Virus record (IMG/VR): IMGVR_UViG_2529293140_000002
Strand: one strand, 5' to 3'
DNA length: 36,706 nt
DNA from: a virus
Lineage: Duplodnaviria > Heunggongvirae > Uroviricota > Caudoviricetes
Below are positions 1,054 through 15,312 of this stretch, piece by piece. The number at the start of each line of letters is the position of its first letter. Position 1 is the stretch's first letter. The notes beneath the pieces are model-generated. The model searched no databases. It saw only the letters and a program-made list of their open reading frames with translations, and was not told the DNA's origin. The translations under genes and the position numbers were made by a program.

Positions 1054-1241
1054 AAAAAATGCCCTCCAATAGAGAGCATTTTTACTGTATGTATAACCAG
1101 TGTCAATGTATGAAATCCTGCGACCATACATCTCACTGAAGCCATAATGAAGTAGGCTATTCTTTTTGCTATGTGATCATGTAACTTTTGCGGTTAACCT
1201 GTGGCTCATTTTTATTTTAGGCGCAGATATAAAAGCAAAAG

Positions 1242-1433
1242 TTATCGTGAGTTTTTAGTACAGATTTTTTTGGATTTACTAATAGTTCCATCATTGCAAA
1301 CGAATTTGCCATCAGAGGTACAGTGAGAAACACCTCCCTTTTTCCCTGAGCAGGGATAATTTCTAGCATAGGTAGCTAGTGGGTTTAATAACAAAGAACA
1401 TGACAAAACCACAAAAAATACCTTACCAAGCAT
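1242..1433 (-). CDS. Small secreted cysteine-containing peptide, hypothetical (candidate moron)
   Basis: 63-aa ORF with an N-terminal hydrophobic signal-like segment ([23 protein letters not shown]) and a Cys-rich mature part; GGGAG Shine-Dalgarno 6 nt upstream; lies 15 bp downstream of the cI stop on the same strand; AT-rich relative to the phage backbone. Confidence 0.45.
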
Positions 1434-1448
1434 AATTTACTCCCGGTA

Positions 1449-2018
1449 CTATTTAACATACTTGACTGTTAAACTTATAATTTTACCAATTATTTCAATG
1501 TCTTCTATCTTACATTCAAAGGCTCTGTTTCCACCCTCGACGAAGATTCTTCCACCGGGTAAACGAGTAATGTCACGGATCGTTATTTCGCCATCAATAC
1601 TTATTACCCATTTACCATCACGTATATCATCAAATTCCTTATCACAAATAAATTCAGAATTATTATCTGTGATTACAAAAAGATTCTTGAATGCCGACGG
1701 TAGAAATTCTCTATCGAAAATATAAAAACCGTCTTCACACAAGGCCCCATCAGATAATACATATTTAGCAACTTCCATAGTATTTGTATTACCTGAAGTT
1801 TGCTTTGAACCATGCCCGGTTGTGAGCCAATTAAGCGAGGTGCCTGTTTCAAGGGCGCACTGGATTACCCATTCTGCTGGGAATGAGTCACGCATGTAGC
1901 GTGTGGCGAGTGTACTTTTAGAGATTCCTAAATGATCGCACAACGCCTGTCGAGTCTTGAATCCATAAGCTTCTACCATGCGCTCTATGGCGCCTCGTCC
2001 GCCTTTCTCCAAATTCAT
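1449..2018 (-). CDS. cI: CI-type immunity repressor (phage 186 CI-like)
   Basis: ORF 1449-2024 minus; likely start ATG at 2018-2016 with GGAG upstream; N-terminal region (EAYGF...LGISKSTLATRY...CALETGTSLNWLTTG) resembles the 186 CI helix-turn-helix domain as I recall it; position between int and the rightward early operon. Confidence 0.75.
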   Translation of the reverse strand: MNLEKGGRGAIERMVEAYGFKTRQALCDHLGISKSTLATRYMRDSFPAEWVIQCALETGTSLNWLTTGHGSKQTSGNTNTMEVAKYVLSDGALCEDGFYIFDREFLPSAFKNLFVITDNNSEFICDKEFDDIRDGKWVISIDGEITIRDITRLPGGRIFVEGGNRAFECKIEDIEIIGKIISLTVKYVK

Positions 2019-2042
2019 GGTCACTCCAAGTGAACTTTTATC

Positions 2043-3948: not shown

Positions 3949-4802
3949 GCACCATCCTGAAATGGGCGGGAAATAAAACTGCCATAATGTCCGAACTGAA
4001 AAAACATCTTCCTGCTGGCCCGCGACTGGTTGAACCTTTCGCGGGTTCCTGTGCTGTGATGATGGAGACGGATTATCCCAGCTATCTGGTTGCGGATATT
4101 AATCCTGATTTAATCAACCTCTATAAAAAGGTTGCCGCTGATTGTGAATCGTTTATATCTCGCGCCAGAGTTTTATTTGAGATCGCAAACAGGGAGGTGG
4201 CTTATTACAACATAAGGCAGGAGTTTAATTACTCAACTGAAATTACTGATTTCATGAAAGCGGTATATTTCCTGTATCTCAATCGTCACGGTTACCGTGG
4301 TTTATGTCGCTATAACAAGAGCGGGCATTTCAACATTCCCTACGGTAATTATAAAAATCCGTATTTCCCTGAAAAAGAAATTCGCGCATTTGCAGAAAAG
4401 GCCCAGCGAGCAACGTTTATCTGCGCCAGCTTTGATGAAACGCTGGCGATGTTGAAGGCGGGGGATGTGGTGTATTGCGATCCGCCGTATGACGGTACGT
4501 TTTCCGGCTATCACACTGACGGCTTCACTGAAGATGACCAGTATCACCTGGCATCTGTTCTTGAACATCGGTCATCAGAAGGACATCCGGTCATTGTTTC
4601 TAACAGTGACACATCCCTGATCCGTTCGCTGTATCGCAATTTTACTCACCACTACATCAAGGCAAAACGCAGCATCGGTGTGGCAGCTGGCGAGGGTAAA
4701 TCAGCAACAGAAATCATTGCTGTTTCCGGGCCGCGCTGCTGGGTGGGATTTGATTATTCGCGTGGCGTGGATAGTTCTGCCGTGTACGGAGTACGTGCAT
4801 GA
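3945..4802 (+). CDS. dam: DNA adenine methyltransferase (Dam family, N6-adenine MTase)
   Basis: ATG at 3945 with GGAGGT upstream; N-terminal SAM-binding region (LKWAGNK...[10 protein letters not shown]) and the DPPY catalytic motif (VYCDPPYDG); stop overlaps the gene A start (ATGA). Confidence 0.85.
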
Positions 4803-7213
4803 GTCATGCCGATATGAACAACTGCTGCGGCTTTAACGAAGCTGCCGCATCGTTCTCATGGAACAGCTCGAAAAAGGCCATTAACCCTTATCTGGACCCG
4901 GTGGAAGTTGCGCCGGTTTCTACGCTTTCAAACCTGATCACTCTGTACGCTGCCGATAACGAGCAGGAACAGCTGCGCCGTGAGGCGCTGAGTGATCAGG
5001 TCTGGGAGCGTTATTTCTTTAATGAATCCCGTGATCCTGTCCAGCGCGAAATGGAACAGGATAAGCTCATTAGTCGGGCAAAGCTGGCGCATGAGCAGCA
5101 GCGTTTTAATCCGGATATGGTCATTCTGGCGGACGTCAACGCCCAGCCTTCCCATATCAGCAAGCCGCTGATGCAACGTATTGAATACTTCAGCAGCCTG
5201 GGCAGGCCAAAGGCTTATTCCCGCTATTTACGTGAGACGATTAAGCCATGTCTGGAACGACTGGAGCATGTACGCGACAGTCAGCTATCTGCATCTTTTC
5301 GCTTTATGGCAAGCCATGAAGGGCTGGACGGCCTGCTGATCCTGCCTGAAATGAGTCAGGATCAGGTGAAACGCCTGTCCACCCTGGTAGCTGCGCATAT
5401 GAGTATGTGCCTTGATGCCGCTTGTGGCGATTTGTATGCCACCGATGACGTTAAGCCAGAAGAAATCCGCAATACATGGGAAAGGGTGGCAGCGGAAACC
5501 CTGCGTCTGGATGTCATCCCGCCTGCGTTTGAGCAACTCCGTCGGAAAAGAAACCGCCGTAAACCCGTGCCCTATGAACTCATTCCGGGTTCGCTGGCGC
5601 GTATGTTGTGCGCCGACTGGTGGTATCGGAAATTATGGAAGATGCGTTGCGAATGGCGGGAAGAGCAGTTGCGTGCTGTCTGCCTTGTCAGCAAAAAAGC
5701 ATCTCCCTATGTCAGCTATGAAGCCGTGTTGCATAAACGTGAGCAGCGCCGTAAGTCGCTGGAGTTTTTCCGTTCTCATGAACTGGTGAACGAAGACGGC
5801 GACACGCTAGACATGGAGGATGTGGTAAACGCCAGCAGCAGCAACCCTGCGCATCGCCGCAATGAGATGATGGCCTGTGTTAAAGGTCTGGAGCTTATCG
5901 CGGAAATGCGCGGTGACTGCGCCGTTTTCTACACCATCACCTGTCCGTCACGTTTCCATTCCACGCTAAATAACGGCAGGCCCAACCCGACCTGGACAAA
6001 TGCGACGGTAAGACAAAGCAGCGATTATCTGGTCGGTATGTTTGCTGCATTTCGTAAGGCGATGCACAAAGCCGGGTTGCGCTGGTATGGCGTGCGGGTG
6101 GCTGAGCCGCATCACGACGGCACAGTTCACTGGCACCTGTTGTGTTTCATGCGCAAAAAAGACCGCCGCGCCATTACAGCATTGTTGCGTAAGTTTGCTA
6201 TCCGTGAAGACCGCGAGGAGCTGGGCAATAACACGGGGCCGCGCTTTAAGTCTGAGCTGATTAACCCGCGCAAAGGAACGCCGACAAGCTACATAGCGAA
6301 ATACATCAGTAAGAACATTGACGGGCGTGGTCTGACTGGCGAGATCAGCAAGGAAACGGGTAAATCTCTGCGTGATAACGCTGAATACGTGAATGCCTGG
6401 GCGTCTTTGCATCGTGTTCAGCAATTCCGCTTCTTTGGCATTCCGGGGCGTCAGGCTTACCGTGAACTGCGATTGCTGGCTGGTCAGGCGGCAAGGCAAA
6501 AGGGGGACAAAAAAGCAGGTGCGCCGGTACTGGATAACCCGCGCCTTGATGCCATCCTGGCTGCTGCTGATGCTGGTTGTTTTGCCACCTACATCATGAA
6601 GCAGGGCGGCGTACTGGTTCCCCGTAAATATCACCTCATCAGAACCGCTTATGAAATCAACGAAGAGCCGACCGCCTATGGCGATCACGGCATTCGTATT
6701 TATGGCATCTGGTCACCCATTGCAGAGGGCAAGATCTGCACTCATGCAGTGAAGTGGAAAATGGTTCGTAAAGCCGTTGACGTTCAGGAGGCGGCAGCCG
6801 ACCAGGGCGCTTGCGCCCCTTGGACTCGTGGCAATAACTGTCCCCTTGCTGAAAATTTGAACCAACAGGAGAAAGATAAATCAGCTGATGGGGACACCAG
6901 AACGGACATTACCCGCATGGATGACAAGGAGTTGCACGATTACCTGCACAGTATGAGCAAAAAAGAGCGCCGGGAACTGGCTGCAAGGTTACGCCTGGTG
7001 AAACCGAAACGGCGTAAAGACTACAAACAGCGAATTACAGACCATCAGCGACTGCAGCTCGTCTATGAGCTGAAGTCCAGAGGATTTGATGGTAACGAGA
7101 AAGAGGTCGATTTACTCCTTCGCGGCGGCAGTATTCCGTCAGGAGCAGGCCTGCGTATCTTCTATCGGAACCAGCGTTTGCAGGAAGATGATAAGTGGCG
7201 GAACCTGTATTAA
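4799..7213 (+). CDS. A: Replication initiation protein A (P2 gpA-like rolling-circle endonuclease)
   Basis: 804-aa ORF; conserved blocks recognisable from P2 gpA ([45 protein letters not shown]...AYRELR). Confidence 0.9.
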
Positions 7214-7305
7214 TTACGCGGGTTAACAATTCGTGCTCTTAATAATACCAGGCATATCAGGCTGATGAACGTAAAAAAACGTTTTACATCAGTAATATTA
7301 TTATA

Positions 7306-7325
7306 TACTGTAAATATAAACAGTA
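7306..7325 (+). promoter_or_regulatory. LexA operator (SOS box) TACTGTAAATATAAACAGTA
   Basis: Perfect CTGT-N8-ACAG palindrome with AT-rich spacer matching the E. coli LexA box consensus; about 40 bp upstream of the 7367 ATG, which has an AGGAGG Shine-Dalgarno. Confidence 0.7.
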
Positions 7326-7366
7326 GTTATCTATACAGTATTGTTTGCGGTGTCATAGGAGGAAAG

Positions 7367-7555
7367 ATGCAGGACTATTTTTTGGAGTCTTTGAAGCTCC
7401 AGCGCATTGATTTTTTTCTTAAGCTTGTAGCGGCTAGTGAGTGTAGTGATGAAGAGAAGGGGCTGGCTCTGCAGTGGGTTTCTGAACTGACAGATGAACT
7501 CATGGCAAAAATCAGAACCCACGAATACAACCGCTCAATGGATGTCATCAGCTGA
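7367..7555 (+). CDS. Small SOS-regulated protein, possible Tum-like antirepressor N-terminal module
   Basis: ORF 7265-7555; internal ATG at 7367 lies just downstream of the LexA box with a strong Shine-Dalgarno; 62 aa; followed 10 bp later by the DinI-like gene. Confidence 0.5.
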   Translation: MQDYFLESLKLQRIDFFLKLVAASECSDEEKGLALQWVSELTDELMAKIRTHEYNRSMDVIS

Positions 7556-7565
7556 GGTGACTTTT

Positions 7566-7799
7566 ATGCGCATTGAAATAATGATCGATAAAGAGCAGAA
7601 GATTAGCCAGTCTACACTGGACGCCCTTGAATCCGAGCTTTACCGCAATCTGCGCCCTCTGTATCCCAAAACGGTAATCCGTATCCGTAAAGGTAGCTCT
7701 AACGGTGTGGAACTGACCGGACTGCAACCGGACGAAGAAAGAAAACAAGTGATGAAAATTATGCAGAAGGTGTGGGAAGACGACAGCTGGCTGCATTAA
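7566..7799 (+). CDS. DinI-family protein (Tum C-terminal-like)
   Basis: ATG at 7566 preceded by GAGGTGA; 77 aa beginning MRIEIMIDK with acidic C-terminus (WEDDSWL), matching the DinI fold pattern as I recall it (MRIEVTIAK...WESADDW). Confidence 0.7.
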   Translation: MRIEIMIDKEQKISQSTLDALESELYRNLRPLYPKTVIRIRKGSSNGVELTGLQPDEERKQVMKIMQKVWEDDSWLH

Positions 7800-8243
7800 G
7801 AAATGTTGCCCCCAGGAGGATTCATTCTAATGGGGGCTAGTTTGGGCAACGAGTGAAACGAGGCGTAAGGTGGGTAATCATTTTGATAAGTGATCGCCCA
7901 CTTTGTGCCAAAAGCGGACATCGCAGATATGACAATATGTTAGTCAACCGCGATTAGATCAGTCAGTTGGAGATGGGGGGAAGTTACAAAAACTTGTCGT
8001 CCGCCATCTCCGACTACGGGTATTCTTAACTGTACATGCTCTTTCAATCGATGATTTTTGAGTAAGTGACTAACCTATTGTTTTGATAGTAATTAAACGT
8101 ATAAACGTGCGGAGTTAATTTGAAAGTTATGTGTCTATGTTTGACAAGCAAAATTTTAAAGATTGGTTTTATCCACAGGTAATTTATGCTATTAATAGCC
8201 TCAAGCCCTGTAATTATTTTTATTTAAATGGATAAATTTGAAA

Positions 8244-10364
8244 ATGAGTACATATCATAATGATCAGCCAATACTAGGTGGTCAAAATGACCCCGATTTA
8301 TTAAACAGGCTCGATTTTGCAAATCACTTGGCAAATATTCTACTATTAAATCACAATGATGATTGCCTTACTGTATCTATAGAGGCAGAGTGGGGATATG
8401 GTAAAACGTCAGTGATAAATCTTATAAAAGGTGCTTTGAATGAAAAGGAGTTCTTACCAATAATAATAGAATATAATCCATGGCTGGCCGGTCAACCTGA
8501 ATCCTTGATTCAGGATTTTTTATTACAGTTCTCTTCACAACTAAATATTAAAGACAATTCAAAAGCTGCTTTGGAAGCTTCAAAAGAATTAATTGCATAC
8601 TCCAATCTCTTCAGTGTAGCAAAACTTATTCCAGGGACAGAACCTTGGGCATCTATCATAGAAAAAGTCCTCTCTAATTTTGGGAGTGCTACTAAAAAGA
8701 TTGCTGAATTAAAAAAACTGGATCTTTTAGGTAGAAAAAAACAAGTAGAGAAGGCAATAAAAAAAATAAAAAATCCTATTGTGGTAATAATTGATGATAT
8801 TGATCGATTGACTCCTGCAGAAACTTTTCAAGTTTTACGATTGGTTAAAGCAGTTGCAGATTTCTCAGGAACTTCTTTTTTACTTGCATTTGATCCTAAT
8901 TATTTGATTTCTGTGCTTGATAAAAATAATATCGTCAATTCTTCGGAGTATCTTAATAAAATTGTTCAACTTCGAGTCCCACTTCCTGTAATCTCAGAAA
9001 GGGGTATGAATGAACTTGCAAATGCAGAACTGGAAAAGATAGCTAATAAATCTTTAACTGACAGATTCGAAAGTGATCAAGAAAGACTAAGCTGGATTTA
9101 TCATAATTATTTTAAAAAACTAATTAAGAATCCGAGAGAGTTAAAAAGATTTTTTAACCATTTGAGATTCGTTTTAGAGCAAATTGAAGGGCAGGTATGT
9201 TTTTCTGATCTCTTTGCTTTATCTCTGGTCGCCACTAAATCGAGTTTGGTATACGAGCATATTAAAAGCACACCAGAGGCATATATAGGGAAGAGATTCA
9301 CTAATGATGGCCTTTTGATGGATAAACCTCAAGATATTGTGGATAGATTTAGTGATGAGCGAAATAAGAAACTGAGTAATTTTTCTGATCAAGAGCGTTC
9401 AGTGATGCAGGAACTCTTAGGAGATATTTTCCCACTTCTACAGTCAAGCGGGTATTCTCATTATGGGGTTTCTGATCCCGATACAGCAGGAAGGGTTTCT
9501 GCACCACAAAGGCTTCATATTGCGTTTCATTATAAAACTCCAGCAGGGTATATTTCTGATCATGATATTATCAGTTTCATTAATGGAGATGTCAAAAGAA
9601 ACGAATTTCTAAGAGATGTGCTCTCGCAAAATGCAGAAGAAAGATTTTTTGAAATGATGAATAATTATTCGAGTTATTGTAAGGATAATAGTTTTGAAAT
9701 ATTAACGTGTATTTATGATACTTTTCTGTTTTCTCAAGAATTGAAATCCTCATTGGAAAGAAACTATGGTTTTTTGACAAAAGATCTTTATAGAAGGATG
9801 AATTGGCTCACTAATAAGGTAATATCTGAAAGTGATGATAAATATGGGTTAATAAAGGGGGTTGTAGGTAGGCATGAGAATGCGCCACTTGGTGCAGACG
9901 TATTATGCCAAGCTCGTAAACAGATTCAAAATGGATGGAATGACAAAATATGGGTTAGTATTGAAGAATTGGCTGAACTTGAAGGTATCTTTCAACAGGT
10001 GGCTATTAAAGTTTTAAGTGATAAAATATATTTTGATTATCATCTTGAATCTCATATATTTTTCGAATTAAAGAGAGTTTCATCTCAATTTACATCAGAG
10101 TTTATTGCTTCTGTATTATCAAGTGATGGCCTGATTAGGATGTGTGAGATTATTGGTGAAACAGGTAGTGATTCAACAAATGGCCCTTATTTTAAGTTTG
10201 ATGAAATTTACTTCGGGGAAATACTTGATGTGAATGAACTTCGAAATAAAGCGAAAAATTTAGATTTTTCAATTTATCCCACACGCATTCAAGCTGTACT
10301 TAAGAGTATTCTGGATGGACAAAAATATTATTTGAGAGATGCAACTGTTGGTGAAGATTGGTAA
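8244..10364 (+). CDS. KAP-family P-loop NTPase
   Basis: About 706 aa from the ATG at 8244 (the track ORF starts at a TTG at 8238); Walker A WGYGKTS at 8391-8411 and Walker B hhhhDDIDR (IVVIIDDIDRL) at about 8781-8807, the characteristic KAP NTPase signatures; strongly AT-rich compared with the phage backbone. Confidence 0.8.
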   Translation: MSTYHNDQPILGGQNDPDLLNRLDFANHLANILLLNHNDDCLTVSIEAEWGYGKTSVINLIKGALNEKEFLPIIIEYNPWLAGQPESLIQDFLLQFSSQLNIKDNSKAALEASKELIAYSNLFSVAKLIPGTEPWASIIEKVLSNFGSATKKIAELKKLDLLGRKKQVEKAIKKIKNPIVVIIDDIDRLTPAETFQVLRLVKAVADFSGTSFLLAFDPNYLISVLDKNNIVNSSEYLNKIVQLRVPLPVISERGMNELANAELEKIANKSLTDRFESDQERLSWIYHNYFKKLIKNPRELKRFFNHLRFVLEQIEGQVCFSDLFALSLVATKSSLVYEHIKSTPEAYIGKRFTNDGLLMDKPQDIVDRFSDERNKKLSNFSDQERSVMQELLGDIFPLLQSSGYSHYGVSDPDTAGRVSAPQRLHIAFHYKTPAGYISDHDIISFINGDVKRNEFLRDVLSQNAEERFFEMMNNYSSYCKDNSFEILTCIYDTFLFSQELKSSLERNYGFLTKDLYRRMNWLTNKVISESDDKYGLIKGVVGRHENAPLGADVLCQARKQIQNGWNDKIWVSIEELAELEGIFQQVAIKVLSDKIYFDYHLESHIFFELKRVSSQFTSEFIASVLSSDGLIRMCEIIGETGSDSTNGPYFKFDEIYFGEILDVNELRNKAKNLDFSIYPTRIQAVLKSILDGQKYYLRDATVGEDW

Positions 10365-10956
10365 TACTTTTATAGGCATGCTTAGAGATGATGGAGTATC
10401 TTTTTCTCCCTTTTTGAGGAAGTGATTTCCAACTGGGCATGGATGCCACATCAAATGGACAGTTGTTGTCACCTGTCAGTTAGCTGCTATTTGTTTATAG
10501 CAGCTGAAAGCCCACTACATAGTTACACCAGAAGGAGTAACAATGTAGTGGATAGCTAAATTTGACCACCTTAACAGATATGTTAATTTCCCCCCTCGCT
10601 CACAGCGGACTTTCATCTTTGTAAACCCTTATAATTCGCTTTTCAGCGGTCATTCAGATACGGATTTACGCTTTCCTTGGCAGTGCATGACTATGACGCA
10701 TGAGATCGCATGATCGTTTGAGGATCGTTTTTGCTGAGGCCAGCCAGAACTGGCGTGCTTTTGCTTATGTCATGCAGGTGCATGAAAACCACTACATAAA
10801 GTGGGCAGGCGTGGCGGGGATACGAGCGCGCGCTAACTCTTGGCTTTGTTTCATAATCAAAAATGTGATCATTGAGATTATTCTTAATTTTATGTTTGTC
10901 TATGAAATATCATTTCGCTTAACATTGTTTGAGTTAGGACTACATGAGAATAAAGA

Positions 10957-11532
10957 ATGCTTTTACCCGTAAGTGTTACATCGTGTGGCTTGTATCACCC
11001 CTACTGGCATTTGGGAGAGCGCAACCCTCATAGCGATGAACTATCAAGGCAGATGATGGATTTTAAGGATGAAAATAATCGTAATCATCAAAGGGCTATT
11101 AACCGTTTTTCTCGATTAGCTATAGATAAGGTTGGGCGGTTAGTAATCAGAGGTGGCGGTGGGCGTTTTGTTGAGTCTCCTTTTTCGATAGCAGTCGTCC
11201 CATCTCACACTGAAGGCAGAATTTCACCGGCTTTGATTGAGGTCGCCGAGCGAATCGTAAATGTTCACCGTCGGGGCATTGTTGATTGCTGTTTGGAAAG
11301 AACACGCACTGTTCCTAGCGCACATCGTGAAGGAGGAGATCGCTCAATTACTGGTCACATGTCTAGTATCAGAGTTAGGGGTGGTAACCTCATGGGGCGA
11401 AATGTGTTACTACTAGATGATGTTAAAACAACAGGCGGTAGTTTGTCTGCGTGTTTTTATTTACTGGAGTCTGCAGGAGCTGGAGTTATAATGCCATTAG
11501 CTCTGCTAGAAACTGCAAACTATGAGGAGTAG
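10957..11532 (+). CDS. Phosphoribosyltransferase-domain protein (ComF-like PRTase); candidate toxin or effector
   Basis: 191-aa ORF; type I PRTase PRPP-binding signature VLLLDDVKTTGGSL at 11404-11442 plus upstream ComF-like blocks (SIAVVPSH, LERTRTVPSAHRE); N-terminus uncertain because a possibly frameshifted ORF 10700-10972 lies upstream. Confidence 0.7.
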   Translation: MLLPVSVTSCGLYHPYWHLGERNPHSDELSRQMMDFKDENNRNHQRAINRFSRLAIDKVGRLVIRGGGGRFVESPFSIAVVPSHTEGRISPALIEVAERIVNVHRRGIVDCCLERTRTVPSAHREGGDRSITGHMSSIRVRGGNLMGRNVLLLDDVKTTGGSLSACFYLLESAGAGVIMPLALLETANYEE

Positions 11533-12496
11533 CAAAGTGCACTCAGAAGAATTAAAAAATACACTTGGATTAGCTATTCAAATCGGGAAGCTAGCATCTG
11601 ATCAAAGTGTATTGAAATTCTTTGAGCTTATTGATTTTGATGTTATTCGTGATATACGCGACTTAACTGAGATGGTTAATAGCCACGGGTTTCTAAAAGA
11701 TAAAATATCTGAGACTGATTTTCTAATAGCGAATGCTGAATTGGAGAACCACCATGTTAATGGTGTGGAGCTAATACCATATGGGTCTGAATTCTATCCT
11801 CTTAGTTTAGCGTTTACTCCTAATCCACCATCAATTCTCTACATAAAAGGGGATAAAAGTATACTAAAAGAATTGCCGGGTGTCGCAATTGTAGGATCCC
11901 GTGATACTTCCCCTGCAGGGGAAGAAATAACGAGGCGAATCACTAATCAGATAGTGTCTGCTGGGTATATTGTTGTAAGTGGGTTAGCAATAGGCACTGA
12001 TGCGAATGCTCATAAGGCAACGTTACAAGCAAAAGGAAAAACCATTGCTGTCTTGGCGCATGGTCTTGAGGAGGCTAAGCCGAAGCAAAACAGTCGACTT
12101 GCTCAAGAGATTCTGGATAAAGGTGGTGCATGGATTTCTGAGTATCCTATGGGGCGACCGGCCCAGAAACAATCATTTGTACAAAGAAATCGGATACAAG
12201 TTGGATTATCTGCAGGTTCAATTTTAATCGAGGCTGCGTTAAATAGCGGAACGATAACTCAAGCTGAGTTTGCAAATAAGGCTAAAAGACCAGTGTTTGC
12301 GGTTGTACCTCACCTACCTAATAATCCGCTTAATCTTAATTGTGAGGGAACAGTTGATTTAGTTAAGAGCAACATGGCTAGAGCGTTAAAAACAAAACGG
12401 GATTATGATGATGTGATTATGATCATAAATGAGTCTCGGGAGTATTTGTTAGAGCTAAAATGGCCAGGGAAACAGAGTACATTAGACTTGATTTAA
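11522..12496 (+). CDS. DprA/Smf-like Rossmann-fold protein; candidate antitoxin or partner of the PRTase
   Basis: 324-aa ORF overlapping the PRTase stop (alternative GTG at 11537 after GAGGAG); DprA signature VAIVGSR...VVSGLAIGTDANAHKA...IAVLAHGL...SEYP...RNRI...LIEAALNSG...RPVFAV. Confidence 0.75.
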   Translation: MRSSKVHSEELKNTLGLAIQIGKLASDQSVLKFFELIDFDVIRDIRDLTEMVNSHGFLKDKISETDFLIANAELENHHVNGVELIPYGSEFYPLSLAFTPNPPSILYIKGDKSILKELPGVAIVGSRDTSPAGEEITRRITNQIVSAGYIVVSGLAIGTDANAHKATLQAKGKTIAVLAHGLEEAKPKQNSRLAQEILDKGGAWISEYPMGRPAQKQSFVQRNRIQVGLSAGSILIEAALNSGTITQAEFANKAKRPVFAVVPHLPNNPLNLNCEGTVDLVKSNMARALKTKRDYDDVIMIINESREYLLELKWPGKQSTLDLI

Positions 12497-12520: not shown

Positions 12521-13546
12521 CTAAATTTGATATCTCTCGAATTTTATAATTTCTTCACCGCTCCAATGATTAAATTCTTTCATTCTTTTTTGTAATGGTA
12601 ATAATTCATTTTTCACAAATACCTTACTAGCTTTTTCTACATCCCCAAATCCCCCAACATTATTAGGCATTATCCCCATCATCTGTGGCGGAACGCGATG
12701 TGCTGCCATCATGTCATCCCGGCTCACGTTCTTGATATTTAGAAACTCATCCTTCGCCGCAACTTCTGACAAAGGGATGATCTGAAGGCCGTCCTTTTTG
12801 CCGTTAGGCGAGTACATAAACAGGTTGCGGAAGTTACCCGGACCTTTGGCACTTTTCATTGCATTGCGGAGGTTGTTCACGTCCTCCTGGTTCTGCGCAG
12901 CATCGGTCATGTACATGATGAAGCCTGCATGACTACCGTTAATGTAATACTTGCGGCGGAACAGCGTGGCGGACTCATTGAGCAGGGCGGACGGAATGGC
13001 AGAAAGATAGCTGGGCAGGCCGTAGATCTCCTGGTTAATGTCCGGTTCCATCAGATGAAAAATGCTGCCTTTCGTGAACTGATACGGCTGGGTTGTCATA
13101 CCGTATTGCACAAACCAGTAGGTATCCAGGTCTAACCCGCGTCGGGTGTATTTTGCCAGAGCAGGCTCAAGGGCGATAACTTCACCGAAGCGGTTCGTGC
13201 GTTTCTCCAGGTAGGCGTTACCAAATACCAGATAGTCCTGCACAAAACGTGAAAAAGCCTGCTGGCTGAGCAGCGGGTGAGGGATGTAGGTACTGGTCAG
13301 AATGTTGCATTTTACTGCAATTGGTGAGCTGTGATGCACGGCAGCGCGGAAGGTTCGTGCCAGTCCGTCAAAGCTGACGGGCGGCTCATACCAGCGGTCC
13401 ATCTGTACGCATTCCACATAGTCCAGCAGTTCACGGCGGTCCAGAACAGGAACGGGATCGCCAAAGCTGAATGCTTCGGCTGAAGTCTGGCTTTTATGCT
13501 TGAGCTGATTCGTCGCCGCAGCGCGGTTTTTCTTACTCTTTCCCAT
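12521..13546 (-). CDS. Q: Portal protein (P2 gpQ-like)
   Basis: ORF 12521-13549 minus; ATG at 13546-13544 overlapping the upstream terminase stop; size about 341 aa; conserved position and length for P2-family portal. Confidence 0.85.
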   Translation of the reverse strand: MGKSKKNRAAATNQLKHKSQTSAEAFSFGDPVPVLDRRELLDYVECVQMDRWYEPPVSFDGLARTFRAAVHHSSPIAVKCNILTSTYIPHPLLSQQAFSRFVQDYLVFGNAYLEKRTNRFGEVIALEPALAKYTRRGLDLDTYWFVQYGMTTQPYQFTKGSIFHLMEPDINQEIYGLPSYLSAIPSALLNESATLFRRKYYINGSHAGFIMYMTDAAQNQEDVNNLRNAMKSAKGPGNFRNLFMYSPNGKKDGLQIIPLSEVAAKDEFLNIKNVSRDDMMAAHRVPPQMMGIMPNNVGGFGDVEKASKVFVKNELLPLQKRMKEFNHWSGEEIIKFERYQI

Positions 13547-15312
13547 CAAAAAATCTCCACAATATTGCTGGTATTGGCGGATTCGCCCTGCAGCGGTTCG
13601 TTAAACAGTGCGTGCATCGTTGCCCAGGCCAGATCGGCGTGGCTGGCTTCTTCGCTGCGGCTGGCTTCATAGGTCGGGCGGTTGCCGCTGGCGGTGGTGG
13701 CGCGACGGATTGCCATGAATGACTGCGCAATGTCGGTGTGCCCGGCGTCAAACTCCAGACGGCGGTGGCTGATAATGTCGTAGGCCTTGAGTACCAGGGC
13801 GTTTTTAACATTGGGGTTGTAGACAAACTCCCGGACGGCAGGAAAGAACGCTTTCACGTTCTCATAAACCCCGTGACCAACGCCGGTTGAGTCGATACCG
13901 ATATAGGTCACGTTGTACTGTTCGGTGAGTTTTTTGATGGCGTCAGCCTGGGCGCGGAAGTCCATCCCGCGCCACTGGTGACGCTCAAGAATGCGGAACT
14001 TACCACCCGGCACGGCTGGCGGAGCCACCACCACGCATCCGGCACTGTCGCCGTTCTGCGTACCTTTTGCCGGGTCATAACCGATCCACACTTCGCGCCA
14101 GCCAAACGGGCGCAGGGCCAGTGCATGAAAGTCGGTCCAGACTTCCCAGCTGTCCACCATGCACGCCTGCAGTTCGCTGAGCGGGAACACGGACGCGAGA
14201 TCGTCCACGAACTCGCACATCAGCAGGTTCTGGTATTCGTCCGGGCTGTACTCCATGCGTAGCTGGTCGAGGTCGAACAGGTTACAGCCGCCGCGCACCG
14301 CATCTTCCACGGTGACTATCTGGCGGTATTGCCCGTCTGCGCACAGCAGGCCGGGGGCCAAATTGCTGTGGGACAGGTCGATGTCCACCTTGTCAGCTTT
14401 GTTGCGTCCACGGTTGAACAGCGCACCGGACCAGAACGGATAAGCACTGTGGGTCAGGCTGGATGGCGTGGAAAAATAGGTTTGTCGCCATTTTTTGTGA
14501 ATAGCCATCCCGGAAGCCACTTTGCGCAGCTCCTGGAATTTCGGTATCCAGAAATATTCATCCAGATACAGGTTGCCGTGATAACTCTGGGCCGTGCGGG
14601 CATTGGTGCCGAGGAAGTAAAGCGTGGCTCCGTTAGGAAGCACCATCGGATCGCCTTTTAGCTCCACCTCGACTTCTTTGGCGAAGTCGATGATGTATTG
14701 TTTAAAGACGTGGGCCTGAGCCTTACTGGCAGAAAGGAAAATCTGGTTACGTCCGGTAAGCAGGGCGTCAATCAGGGCTTCACGGGCAAAATAGAAGGTC
14801 GCGCCGATCTGGCGTGACTTCAGCAGGTTGCGGATGCGGTTGGTTTTTCCGGCTTCCCACCAGTGGCGCTGGTAGTTGAACATGGAGGAATGGAAGATTT
14901 CTTCCAGCTTCTCAATCTGCTCATCGGTGAAAACATTCTTTTCCGGCTGACGGCGTGGGCCTTTATTGCGGTTGGCGACGTTAGGGTTTAAGTCGGCTTC
15001 GTTGCCGCCATTGTTAAACTTGCCGATCCGCGCGTGGCGCTCAGACTGGCGCGCCAGCAGGTCAATCTCTTTGAAATCTTTCCCTTCTTTGTGCTCCTTC
15101 ATAATGAGCTGGCAGTAGCGTGCGGCGGTGGTGAGCTGCATCTGATCCAGCGGCCCATAGTCACCCCACTTGTCGCGTTTTTTCCAGCTGTGAACGGTTG
15201 CAACTTTCTCGCCCAGCATTTCAGCAATGCGGGCTACGCGGTATCCCTGAAAGTACAGCAGCATGGCCTGCCGACGGGGATCGAGATCTGCGGGTGTCAG
15301 TGTGGTGTTCAT
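13546..15312 (-). CDS. P: Terminase large subunit, ATPase (P2 gpP-like)
   Basis: 588-aa ORF, start ATG at 15312-15310 (MNTTLTPADL); divergent from the scaffold gene O as in P2. Confidence 0.9.
   Translation of the reverse strand: MNTTLTPADLDPRRQAMLLYFQGYRVARIAEMLGEKVATVHSWKKRDKWGDYGPLDQMQLTTAARYCQLIMKEHKEGKDFKEIDLLARQSERHARIGKFNNGGNEADLNPNVANRNKGPRRQPEKNVFTDEQIEKLEEIFHSSMFNYQRHWWEAGKTNRIRNLLKSRQIGATFYFAREALIDALLTGRNQIFLSASKAQAHVFKQYIIDFAKEVEVELKGDPMVLPNGATLYFLGTNARTAQSYHGNLYLDEYFWIPKFQELRKVASGMAIHKKWRQTYFSTPSSLTHSAYPFWSGALFNRGRNKADKVDIDLSHSNLAPGLLCADGQYRQIVTVEDAVRGGCNLFDLDQLRMEYSPDEYQNLLMCEFVDDLASVFPLSELQACMVDSWEVWTDFHALALRPFGWREVWIGYDPAKGTQNGDSAGCVVVAPPAVPGGKFRILERHQWRGMDFRAQADAIKKLTEQYNVTYIGIDSTGVGHGVYENVKAFFPAVREFVYNPNVKNALVLKAYDIISHRRLEFDAGHTDIAQSFMAIRRATTASGNRPTYEASRSEEASHADLAWATMHALFNEPLQGESANTSNIVEIF

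What the first reader, a model, noticed from the sequence alone, without database searches (positions are those of the whole stretch)
7306..7799. SOS-controlled Tum/DinI-like module with a consensus LexA box
A perfect CTGT-N8-ACAG LexA operator (TACTGTAAATATAAACAGTA, 7306-7325) lies just upstream of a 62-aa ORF with a strong Shine-Dalgarno, followed 10 bp later by a DinI-family ORF (MRIEIMIDK...). In phage 186, prophage induction is driven by the LexA-repressed antirepressor Tum, whose C-terminal part is DinI-like. Here the equivalent appears as two separate small ORFs, suggesting a split or bipartite version of the antirepressor module.
Basis: partly seen in the sequence, partly recalled or inferred. 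Interest (0 to 1): 0.55.

Follow-up and report, generated by a model that had tools for sequence, protein, structure and literature searches.

The report
Split Tum SOS antirepressor operon
This is the DNA-damage switch of a 186/Fels-2-type prophage of E. coli: a LexA-repressed promoter driving a small antirepressor gene (tumA-like) and a DinI-like gene (tumB-like). This two-gene form of phage 186 Tum is already described for phages PSP3 and Fels-2, so the finding is correct but ordinary.

Summary

- **Setting.** The window is a 186/Fels-2-like prophage, 100% identical to E. coli chromosomes. It has a 186-type int–cI | apl–cII–…–A layout.
- **The module.** Right after gene A lie a LexA box (7306-7325), a 62-aa ORF (7367-7555) and a 77-aa DinI-family ORF (7566-7799).
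- **ORF1.** It is 98% identical to Fels-2 STM2728. It is homologous to the N-terminal half of 186 Tum through PHROG cross-hits and in-register transitive BLASTP.
- **Coverage of Tum.** ORF1 and ORF2 joined cover Tum residues 7-145.
- **Prior description.** GenBank annotates the PSP3 equivalents as tumA and tumB. Lemire et al. 2011, citing Bunny et al. 2002, state that Fels-2 and PSP3 have tum split in two and that the upstream gene is the antirepressor.

New details from this work:
- The operator is really two overlapping LexA boxes. The second is at 7321-7340. It is conserved in 25 of 27 long-spacer relatives and is about 85% identical to the dual SOS operator of colicin genes.
- TumA sequence does not co-vary with CI sequence (Mantel r = 0.03).
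- The only other LexA-like box in the window sits in a promoter-like site upstream of int.

Interest is low to moderate.

The parts
7283..7288 (+). -35 hexamer TTTACA of the SOS promoter (p95 equivalent)
   Evidence: It lies 17 nt upstream of TACTGT. TTTACA is at this exact distance in 24 of 32 related loci. The layout matches the annotated 186 p95 promoter. The generic promoter scan did not call it, because the -10 matches only 3 of 6 positions.
7306..7311 (+). Putative -10 hexamer TACTGT, inside LexA box 1
   Evidence: This is the same hexamer, in the same relation to the LexA box, as the annotated -10 of 186 p95. Assigned by analogy, not by experiment.
7306..7325 (+). LexA box 1, TACTGTAAATATAAACAGTA
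   Evidence: It is conserved in 30 of 31 assessable related loci and in all 7 reference phages.
7321..7340 (+). LexA box 2, CAGTAGTTATCTATACAGTA (core GTAG-N8-ACAG, sharing one base with core 1)
   Evidence: The right half ACAG is in exact register in 25 of 27 relatives that have the long spacer, and the left half is usually GTGG. Together with box 1 it aligns almost base for base with the dual SOS operator of colicin N and a pColE1-type plasmid. Colicin operators of this kind bind two LexA dimers. 186 and PSP3 lack this second box.
7357..7362 (+). Shine-Dalgarno AGGAGG of ORF1
   Evidence: Read from the sequence. GGAGG is conserved in the relatives.
7367..7555 (+). tumA-like gene (62 aa), the predicted CI antirepressor
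   Evidence: It hits phrog_698 at E = 3.6e-38 and cross-hits the Tum N-terminal families. It is 98.4% identical to Fels-2 STM2728 and 100% identical to the ORF in many Klebsiella and E. coli phages. Transitive homology links it to the 186 Tum N-terminus and PSP3 TumA. The predicted structure is a helical hairpin with mean pLDDT 90. Third-codon-position substitution bias shows it is coding.
7566..7799 (+). tumB-like gene (77 aa), DinI family
   Evidence: Pfam PF06183 at E = 1e-22. 77% identical to PSP3 TumB, 41% to 186 Tum residues 71-145, and E = 2.5e-6 to E. coli DinI structure 1GHH. It scores below the NCBIfam cut-off for chromosomal DinI (42.7 against 111 bits).
7808..7837 (+). G+C-rich hairpin after tumB; possible weak or partial terminator, comparable to 186 t95a
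   Evidence: The RNA fold gives -20.4 kcal/mol, z = -2.2. There is no good T-run after it, and the terminator scan did not call it. Homology with most related phages ends here.
1449..2024 (-). 186-type cI repressor, the predicted target of TumA
   Evidence: Pfam Phage_CI_repr plus Phage_CI_C. 33% identical to 186 CI over 175 residues, E = 8e-38.

Best explanation
This is the SOS operon of a 186/Fels-2-type prophage in its two-gene form, tumA-tumB.

**Repressed state (inferred).** In an undamaged lysogen, LexA dimers occupy two overlapping boxes. These cover the -10 region and the start region of a promoter located just after replication gene A, and they keep it shut.

**Induction (inferred).** DNA damage activates RecA, LexA cleaves itself, and the promoter fires. 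Two proteins are then made:
- **TumA-like (62 aa, a helical hairpin)** binds the prophage's 186-type CI repressor and stops it binding its operators. The early lytic promoter opens and the prophage is induced.
- **TumB-like (77 aa, DinI-like)** is an accessory. By analogy with DinI and with the short C-terminal Tum products of 186, it modulates RecA filament activity and the strength or timing of the SOS signal.

**Shown here:** the sequence elements, their conservation, the homologies and the genomic context.

**Inferred from 186, PSP3 and Fels-2:** LexA binding, the TumA-CI interaction and the role of TumB.
For: **Context**
- gpA, Dam, cII (69% identical to 186 CII), a 186-type CI, int and the portal gene are all in 186 order.
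- 186 has the annotated promoter p95, a LexA site and tum in the same place.

**Operator**
- Box 1 is conserved in 30 of 31 assessable loci and in all 7 reference phages.
- Box 2 is conserved in 25 of 27 long-spacer loci.
- The pair matches the colicin dual SOS operator, which is known to bind two LexA dimers and to give tight repression.

**TumA homology**
- PHROG cross-hits: ORF1 hits phrog_698, phrog_8554 and phrog_1993. The Tum N-terminal half hits phrog_1993, phrog_8554 and phrog_698 in register 7-44.
- hhalign gives E = 1.2e-3.
- The BLASTP chain is: window-ESSI2 6e-18, window-YenM 6e-8, YenM-186 2.9e-11, ESSI2-186 2.6e-6, and 186-PSP3 TumA 5e-6.
- The joined ORFs align with Tum residues 7-145.
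- tblastn with Tum reads through both ORFs in Yersinia phage MLG42, phage 500465-1 and PSP3.

**TumB homology:**

**Published function**
- Tum binds CI and prevents operator binding.
- Fels-2 and PSP3 have tum split in two, and the PSP3 upstream gene carries the antirepressor activity (PMC3121763).
- The PSP3 record annotates tumA as 'UV induction of prophage'.
[quoted passage not shown] Fels-2 TumA differs from this ORF at 1 of 62 residues.
- The p95-tum module is enough for UV induction of the 186 switch (PMC7708051).
Against: - No experiment exists on this exact element.
- ORF1 has no direct BLASTP match to 186 Tum or to PSP3 TumA, so homology rests on profiles and intermediates. hhalign probability is only 19%, from shallow alignments.
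- The -10 hexamer is weak, matching 3 of 6 positions.
- The PSP3 antirepressor assignment reaches the literature only as a personal communication, cited second-hand. I could not read Bunny et al. 2002.
- TumA sequence is uncoupled from CI sequence. A strictly cognate antirepressor-repressor pair would not be expected to behave this way.
Confidence: 0.85

Rival explanations
1. Obligate two-subunit Tum: neither protein works alone. TumA-like and TumB-like must associate to rebuild a 186-Tum-like antirepressor.
For: - In 186 the annotated short products that lack the N-terminus only 'modulate' induction, and the full-length protein is the antirepressor.
- The two genes are 9-12 nt apart and always in this order where both are present.
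- In some relatives only a stop codon separates them in the same frame.
Against: - The TumA-like gene, with its LexA box, stands alone without any DinI gene in ESSI2 and Yersinia phages.
- It also stands alone in 14 of 32 genome loci, and 3 more loci have a truncated DinI gene.
- The PSP3 upstream gene alone is reported to carry antirepressor activity.
- In Gifsy phages, dinI deletions did not affect induction.
Confidence: 0.08
2. Not an induction switch: a LexA-controlled accessory cassette. The DinI paralogue tunes the host SOS response for the lysogen, and ORF1 has some unrelated function.
For: - ORF1 is 'hypothetical protein' in RefSeq.
- It has no Pfam or NCBIfam family and no solved or specific structural relative.
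- DinI homologues under LexA control occur in many unrelated prophages.
- The same TumA sequence sits next to very different CI repressors.
Against: - ORF1 is homologous to the functional half of Tum.
- It is conserved with the LexA box even where DinI is absent.
- The module occupies the tum position in a genome with a 186-type CI.
- Fels-2, whose ORF1 homologue differs at one residue, causes LexA-dependent lethality.
Confidence: 0.05
3. The LexA box is a chance match in A+T-rich intergenic DNA, and the operon is expressed constitutively or under CI control.
For: The 16-mer core alone is expected 0.41 times per window, and 31% of shuffles contain one.
Against: - The full 20-mer is the only perfect match in the window.
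- Its position relative to the -35 hexamer is fixed across relatives, while the flanks and the 8-nt spacer vary.
- It also matches the experimentally studied colicin operators.
Confidence: 0.02

Closest known systems
Salmonella phage Fels-2 STM2728 / STM2726.1 (Felsduovirus) and the same module in Klebsiella and E. coli Peduoviridae (Cartapus, 4LV2017, 813R9 and others)
   Same: - It is essentially the same DNA: 88-98% nucleotide identity over 7200-7800.
- ORF1 is 98.4-100% identical.
- The dual LexA operator, the spacing and the 10-nt gap are the same.
- The Fels-2 split of tum is reported in the literature.
   Different: - Box 1 ends in GTA here and GTG in Fels-2. Box 2's left half is GTAG here and GTGG in Fels-2.
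- The CI repressor is a different immunity type, 38-56% identical to the CI of phages that carry an identical TumA.
- The cargo downstream differs: PifA-like plus Shosta here, an orf97-like gene in Fels-2.
Phage PSP3 tumA / tumB
   Same: - The two-gene layout behind a LexA box, just after gene A, is the same. It is annotated 'similar to 5' end 186 tum; UV induction of prophage' and 'similar to dinI and 3' end of 186 tum'.
- TumB is 77% identical to ORF2.
   Different: - TumA belongs to a different subfamily, with no direct BLASTP match. The link runs through 186 and Yersinia intermediates.
- PSP3 has a single LexA box, 20 nt from the start codon.
- In PSP3 the two ORFs are in one frame, separated by a stop codon.
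Phage 186 Tum (p95 SOS operon)
   Same: - A LexA-repressed promoter in the same position, with -10 TACTGT inside the box.
- The N-terminal antirepressor part and the C-terminal DinI-like part are collinear with ORF1 plus ORF2.
- The target is a 186-type CI.
   Different: - 186 makes one 146-aa polypeptide plus internal-start products. Here there are two genes in different frames.
- 186 has one LexA box; here there are two overlapping boxes.
- 186 orf97 follows tum; here defence cargo follows.
Dual overlapping SOS boxes of colicin operons (colicin N, E1/10, E8, K)
   Same: Two 16-mer cores share one base, in the form CTGT-N8-(A/C)CAG-TGG-N8-ACAG. The Fels-2 version is about 85% identical to the colicin N operator over 41-48 nt. 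Two LexA dimers bind such sites.
   Different: - It drives a phage antirepressor, not a toxin.
- The flanking promoter and 5' leader are unrelated.
- Whether the resemblance reflects common descent or convergence is not settled.
Gifsy prophage dinI-gfoA/gftA LexA operons
   Same: A LexA-controlled operon that pairs a DinI homologue with a small antirepressor that acts without repressor cleavage.
   Different: The gene order is reversed, with dinI first. The antirepressors and repressors are unrelated in sequence, and the phage type is lambdoid.

Membership tests
186-type SOS antirepressor operon (Tum; TumA/TumB) | A LexA box overlapping the promoter directly upstream of the gene | tested here: met
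   Box 1 is at 7306-7325 and overlaps the putative -10. It is conserved across relatives. This test is on sequence only.
186-type SOS antirepressor operon (Tum; TumA/TumB) | Located immediately after replication gene A of a 186-like (Peduoviridae) genome that encodes a 186-type CI (Phage_CI_repr plus Phage_CI_C) | tested here: met
   gpA runs 4799-7213. CI has both Pfam domains and is 33% identical to 186 CI. cII is 69% identical to 186 CII.
186-type SOS antirepressor operon (Tum; TumA/TumB) | Protein homologous to the N-terminal (antirepressor) half of Tum | tested here: met
   Met at profile and transitive level. Direct pairwise BLASTP is negative.
186-type SOS antirepressor operon (Tum; TumA/TumB) | DinI-like part homologous to the C-terminal half of Tum / TumB | tested here: met
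   41% identical to Tum residues 71-145, 77% to PSP3 TumB, and Pfam DinI at E = 1e-22.
186 Tum in the strict sense (single fused polypeptide) | N-terminal and DinI-like parts in one reading frame, as one protein | tested here: not met
   There is a stop at 7553-7555, a 10-nt gap and a frame change. It therefore belongs to the split PSP3/Fels-2 form, not the fused 186 form.
186-type SOS antirepressor operon (Tum; TumA/TumB) | The protein binds CI and prevents operator binding; expression induces the prophage | not testable with these tools
   Known for 186 Tum and reported for PSP3 TumA. Fels-2 genetics are consistent with it.
186-type SOS antirepressor operon (Tum; TumA/TumB) | Transcription repressed by LexA and induced by DNA damage | not testable with these tools
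   Only sequence and conservation evidence is available here.
DinI family (PF06183) | Match to the family profile above Pfam's gathering score | tested here: met
   80.7 bits against a cut-off of 24.2. Also aligns with the E. coli DinI structure 1GHH at E = 2.5e-6.
Chromosomal DinI (NCBIfam NF007893 equivalog) | Score above the equivalog cut-off | tested here: not met
   42.7 bits against a cut-off of 111. It is a phage DinI-like paralogue, not the host DinI orthologue.
Colicin-type dual overlapping SOS operator | Two LexA 16-mer cores overlapping by one base downstream of the -35 hexamer | tested here: met
   The cores are 7308-7323 and 7323-7338. The register is conserved in 25 of 27 long-spacer loci, and the pair aligns with colicin N and pColE1-type operators.
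Colicin-type dual overlapping SOS operator | Occupancy by two LexA dimers | not testable with these tools
   Shown for colicin E8 by footprinting, not for this site. In this window box 2 has a weak left half, GTAG.

The most novel reading that the evidence does not exclude
The Fels-2-type TumA may be a generalist antirepressor. The same or nearly the same 62-aa protein inactivates many heteroimmune 186-type CI repressors, by binding their conserved N-terminal DNA-binding domain. One SOS-induced P2-like prophage could then induce others in trans. The module could also move freely between immunity types.

A related possibility is that its tight, colicin-like double LexA operator was acquired as a ready-made regulatory cassette shared with Col plasmids.
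Probability: 0.3. Interest if true: 0.5.

Novelty: already known. Interest (0 to 1): 0.22.

Why it matters
**Significance of the module itself.** It decides whether DNA damage, including that from quinolone antibiotics, wakes up a very common family of E. coli, Klebsiella and Salmonella prophages. It was found in 1126 of 5426 complete E. coli genomes. The principle is textbook for phage 186, and the split form is documented for PSP3 and Fels-2, so the finding adds no new biology.

**Practical value.** RefSeq still labels the antirepressor gene 'hypothetical protein'. The name tumA could be propagated to it.

**Side observations that are cheap to test and not obviously published:**
- A colicin-like double LexA operator.
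- A lack of co-variation between TumA and CI.
- A LexA-like box in a promoter-like site upstream of int.

These bear on how tightly, and how specifically, P2-like prophages are wired to the SOS response.

Tried and rejected
- **Direct BLASTP** of ORF1 against 186 Tum and PSP3 TumA found no alignment. Homology had to be shown through profiles and intermediates.
- **Pfam and NCBIfam** have no family for ORF1. Sequence search of the PDB found nothing.
- **Structure.** The AlphaFold model of ORF1 is a confident two-helix hairpin. Foldseek against the PDB and BFVD gave only generic hairpin matches with E > 0.4, which are uninformative.
- **Hairpin at the ORF1/ORF2 junction.** The hairpin at 7544-7561 hides the ORF2 ribosome-binding site and was flagged as terminator-like. 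I considered it as a translational-coupling element. It is not conserved in relatives, so I rejected it as incidental.
- **Locus search with a broad alignment.** An alignment spanning all TumA subfamilies was too diverse for the search for related loci. A narrower alignment worked.
- **Unavailable papers.** Bunny et al. 2002 and Gillor et al. 2008 are not held. I could not check whether the second LexA box of Fels-2 has been noted before.
- **'Levan regulatory protein'.** UniRef and one phage record give this name to ORF1. No family search here supports it, and I treat it as an annotation artefact.
- **Co-evolution of TumA with CI** was tested and not found.

Full report
**What is there**

- TACTGTAAATATAAACAGTA lies at 7306-7325.
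- AGGAGG lies at 7357-7362.
- A 62-aa ORF runs 7367-7555.
- Ten bases later, in another frame, a 77-aa ORF runs 7566-7799 and matches Pfam DinI at E = 1e-22.

The bare CTGT-N8-ACAG core is not statistically remarkable on its own. About 0.41 are expected per window, and 31 of 100 shuffles contain one. Its reality has to come from comparison with relatives.

**Context**

The window is a 186/Fels-2-type (Peduoviridae) prophage.
- int is at 1-1131 on the minus strand.
- A 186-type cI is at 1449-2024 on the minus strand. It has Pfam Phage_CI_repr plus Phage_CI_C and is 33% identical to 186 CI.
- It is followed by an apl-like ORF, cII (69% identical to 186 CII), a Dam methylase and replication gene A at 4799-7213.
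- Then come the module, a variable region, and the portal gene at 12521-13549 on the minus strand.

In phage 186 the same position after gene A holds the annotated promoter p95, its LexA site and tum. The stretch 6900-8400 is 100% identical to the chromosomes of E. coli BE311, F41, K99S and EC24.26. A match to it is found in 1126 of 5426 complete E. coli genomes, and RefSeq calls ORF1 'hypothetical protein'.

**Is ORF1 the front half of Tum?**

ORF2 is clearly the back half. It is 41% identical to Tum residues 71-145 (E = 2e-24) and 77% identical to PSP3 TumB.

ORF1 gives no direct BLASTP hit to Tum or to PSP3 TumA. Several independent lines still connect them, all in the same register.
- **PHROG profiles.** ORF1 hits phrog_698 (3.6e-38), phrog_8554 (2.4e-8) and phrog_1993 (2e-3). 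The N-terminal half of Tum hits phrog_1993 (1e-22), phrog_8554 (1.4e-11) and phrog_698 (2.4e-5, residues 7-44 on profile positions 7-44).
- **hhalign.** The ORF1 family against the Tum N-terminal family aligns columns 4-43 with 4-43 at E = 1.2e-3. Both alignments are shallow, and the probability is only 19%.
- **A chain of pairwise BLASTP hits.** Window-ESSI2_ev015 6e-18, window-Yersinia YenM_06.16-2 6e-8, YenM-186 2.9e-11, ESSI2-186 2.6e-6, and 186-PSP3 TumA 5e-6.
- **Read-through tblastn.** Tum aligns in a single piece through both ORFs in Yersinia phage MLG42, over Tum residues 1-145. The MLG42 ORF1 homologue is 84% identical to this one. The same happens in phage 500465-1 and in PSP3.
- **The joined ORFs.** ORF1 plus ORF2, joined with a 3-residue linker I added, align with Tum residues 7-145 at 30% identity and 56% positives (E = 8e-28). 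That is 11 bits more than ORF2 alone.

The shared motif is roughly (I/L)xR(I/V)(D/E)x(I/F)x(R/K)(L/M)xA…C…(D/E)(K/R)x(I/L)AL..(I/V)(A/S)E(L/I).

ORF1 is predicted to be a two-helix hairpin, with helices at residues 2-23 and 28-61 and mean pLDDT 90. Third-position substitution bias shows that both ORFs are under purifying selection.

**Already known**

- ORF1 is 98.4% identical to Fels-2 STM2728 and 100% identical to the ORF in many Klebsiella and E. coli phages.
- The PSP3 GenBank record annotates the two genes as tumA ('similar to 5' end 186 tum; UV induction of prophage') and tumB ('similar to dinI and 3' end of 186 tum').
- Lemire et al. 2011 (PMC3121763) say that Tum looks like an antirepressor fused to DinI. 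[quoted passage not shown] 2002.

**Is the DinI half needed?**

Probably not for antirepression.
- The TumA-like gene, with its LexA box, stands alone in ESSI2_ev015 and in Yersinia phage YenM_06.16-2.
- Among 32 loci from different Enterobacterales species, 15 have an intact 77-aa DinI gene 9-12 nt downstream, 3 have a truncated one, and 14 have none within 600 nt.
- In the phage collection the fused 186 form, the split form and the TumA-only form all occur.

**The operator is double**

Aligning the upstream regions of the 32 loci shows a fixed design.
- An A-run is followed by TTTACA, found in 24 of 32 loci.
- After 17 nt comes TACTGT-N8-(A/C)CAG, which is box 1.
- Box 1 is exact in 23 loci and one core mismatch off in 7, mostly the natural CCAG variant.
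- One locus is cut by a contig end and one is degenerate.

In the 27 loci with a long leader there is a second core that shares one base with the first. It usually reads GTGG-N8-ACAG, with ACAG in exact register in 25 of the 27. In this window it is 7321-7340, CAGTAGTTATCTATACAGTA. The five loci with a short leader lack this element, and so do 186 and PSP3.

The pair of boxes matches a known design.
- It aligns almost base for base with the operator upstream of colicin genes on small Col plasmids. The Fels-2 version is about 85% identical to the colicin N operator over 41-48 nt.
- More than 1100 plasmid records match it. The two I inspected lie upstream of a colicin N gene and of a colicin-10 gene on pColE1-MRE600.

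Tight repression makes sense for a gene whose leaky expression would induce the prophage. I could not find out whether this second box has been described for Fels-2, because the key paper is not held. Whether the resemblance to colicin operators reflects shared ancestry or convergence is open.

**TumA does not track CI**

- Phages with a TumA 100% identical to this one carry CI repressors only 38-56% identical to this CI.
- Over 25 loci (300 pairs), TumA identity and CI identity are uncorrelated: Mantel r = 0.035, p = 0.34, and Spearman -0.09.
- Pairs with at least 95% identical TumA have a median CI identity of 43%.
- One locus, L028, pairs this TumA type with a CI whose N-terminus resembles that of 186.
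- The most conserved part of these CIs is the N-terminal helix-turn-helix domain, residues 11-75.

One reading is that TumA recognises a conserved surface there, and so can act across immunity types. That would parallel the trans-acting Gifsy antirepressors of Lemire et al.. This is inference, not a result.

**Mechanism**

In the lysogen, LexA on the double operator blocks the promoter. DNA damage leads to LexA self-cleavage and transcription of tumA-tumB. TumA sequesters CI away from its operators, the early lytic promoter fires, and the prophage is induced. TumB, like DinI and the short Tum products annotated as 'modulates SOS induction', tunes RecA filament activity.

A hairpin at 7808-7837 (-20.4 kcal/mol, z = -2.2) may terminate part of the transcripts, but it lacks a good T-run.

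The sequence anatomy, its conservation and the homology are shown here. LexA binding, TumA-CI binding and the TumB role are inferred from 186, PSP3, Fels-2 and the colicin work.

**Verdict**

It is the Fels-2/PSP3-type tumA-tumB SOS operon, nearly identical to copies in sequenced phages. Interest is low. The modest additions are the colicin-like double operator, the lack of co-variation between TumA and CI, and a candidate LexA-controlled int promoter.

Noticed in passing
window 1078-1106 (minus strand); LexA-like box at 1083-1102: TACTGTATGTATAACCAGTG is the only other LexA-like box in the window. On the minus strand it fills the spacer of a promoter-like site, TTGACA-17-AAAAAT. That site lies about 25 nt upstream of the likely int start (ATG at 1053-1051, RBS GGAGGG). 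The CTGG-N8-ACAG core is conserved in Klebsiella phages 4LV2017 and KP12, E. coli phage 813R9 and an Escherichia sp. prophage, although the flanks differ. It may be an SOS-regulated integrase promoter. A hairpin with a T-run (GCTCTC-tattg-GAGGGC-ATTTTTT) lies between it and the ATG.
   Followed up: partly
window 8238-12496: The stretch between the SOS module and the portal gene holds defence cargo. There is a PifA-like KAP-family NTPase at 8238-10364 (PADLOC PifA 6.7e-65). There is also a Shosta-like pair: ShosT-like at 10957-11532 and ShosA-like (DprA/SLOG) at 11522-12496. This is the gpA-gpQ hotspot of P2-like phages (PMC9122126). Only 18 of 1126 matching E. coli genomes share this cargo junction. 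All the cargo genes are on the same strand as the SOS operon, so read-through from the LexA-controlled promoter is conceivable but untested.
   Followed up: partly
window 1449-2024 compared with loci L008-L039 and phage records: Identical or near-identical TumA proteins are paired with CI repressors only 36-56% identical to each other, and there is no correlation between the two (Mantel r = 0.035, p = 0.34). The CI N-terminal domain is the conserved part. This suggests a broadly acting antirepressor, or free shuffling of the module between immunity types.
   Followed up: partly
window 7296-7340; plasmid loci L040 at 1201-1245 and L041 at 1201-1249: The tumA promoter-operator of Fels-2-type phages is about 85% identical over 41-48 nt to the dual SOS operator of colicin genes on small mobilizable Col plasmids. 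More than 1100 plasmid records match it. Common origin versus convergence is unresolved.
   Followed up: partly
window 1242-1433 (minus strand): A 63-aa ORF lies between cI and int. It has a hydrophobic, signal-peptide-like N-terminus and six cysteines ([23 protein letters not shown]...). It has no Pfam match and may be a small secreted moron protein.
   Followed up: no
window 7544-7561: A hairpin, GTCATC-AGCTGA-GGTGAC followed by TTTTAT, spans the ORF1 stop codon and the ORF2 ribosome-binding site and was flagged as terminator-like. It is not conserved in related loci, so it is probably incidental.
   Followed up: yes
window 7265-7555 and database proteins P0005, P0007 and others: Many public gene calls for ORF1 are 87-101 aa long. 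They start at upstream in-frame codons, such as the ATG at 7265, which lie upstream of or inside the promoter and LexA boxes. The conserved RBS and the 62-aa length across genera indicate that 7367 is the real start.
   Followed up: partly
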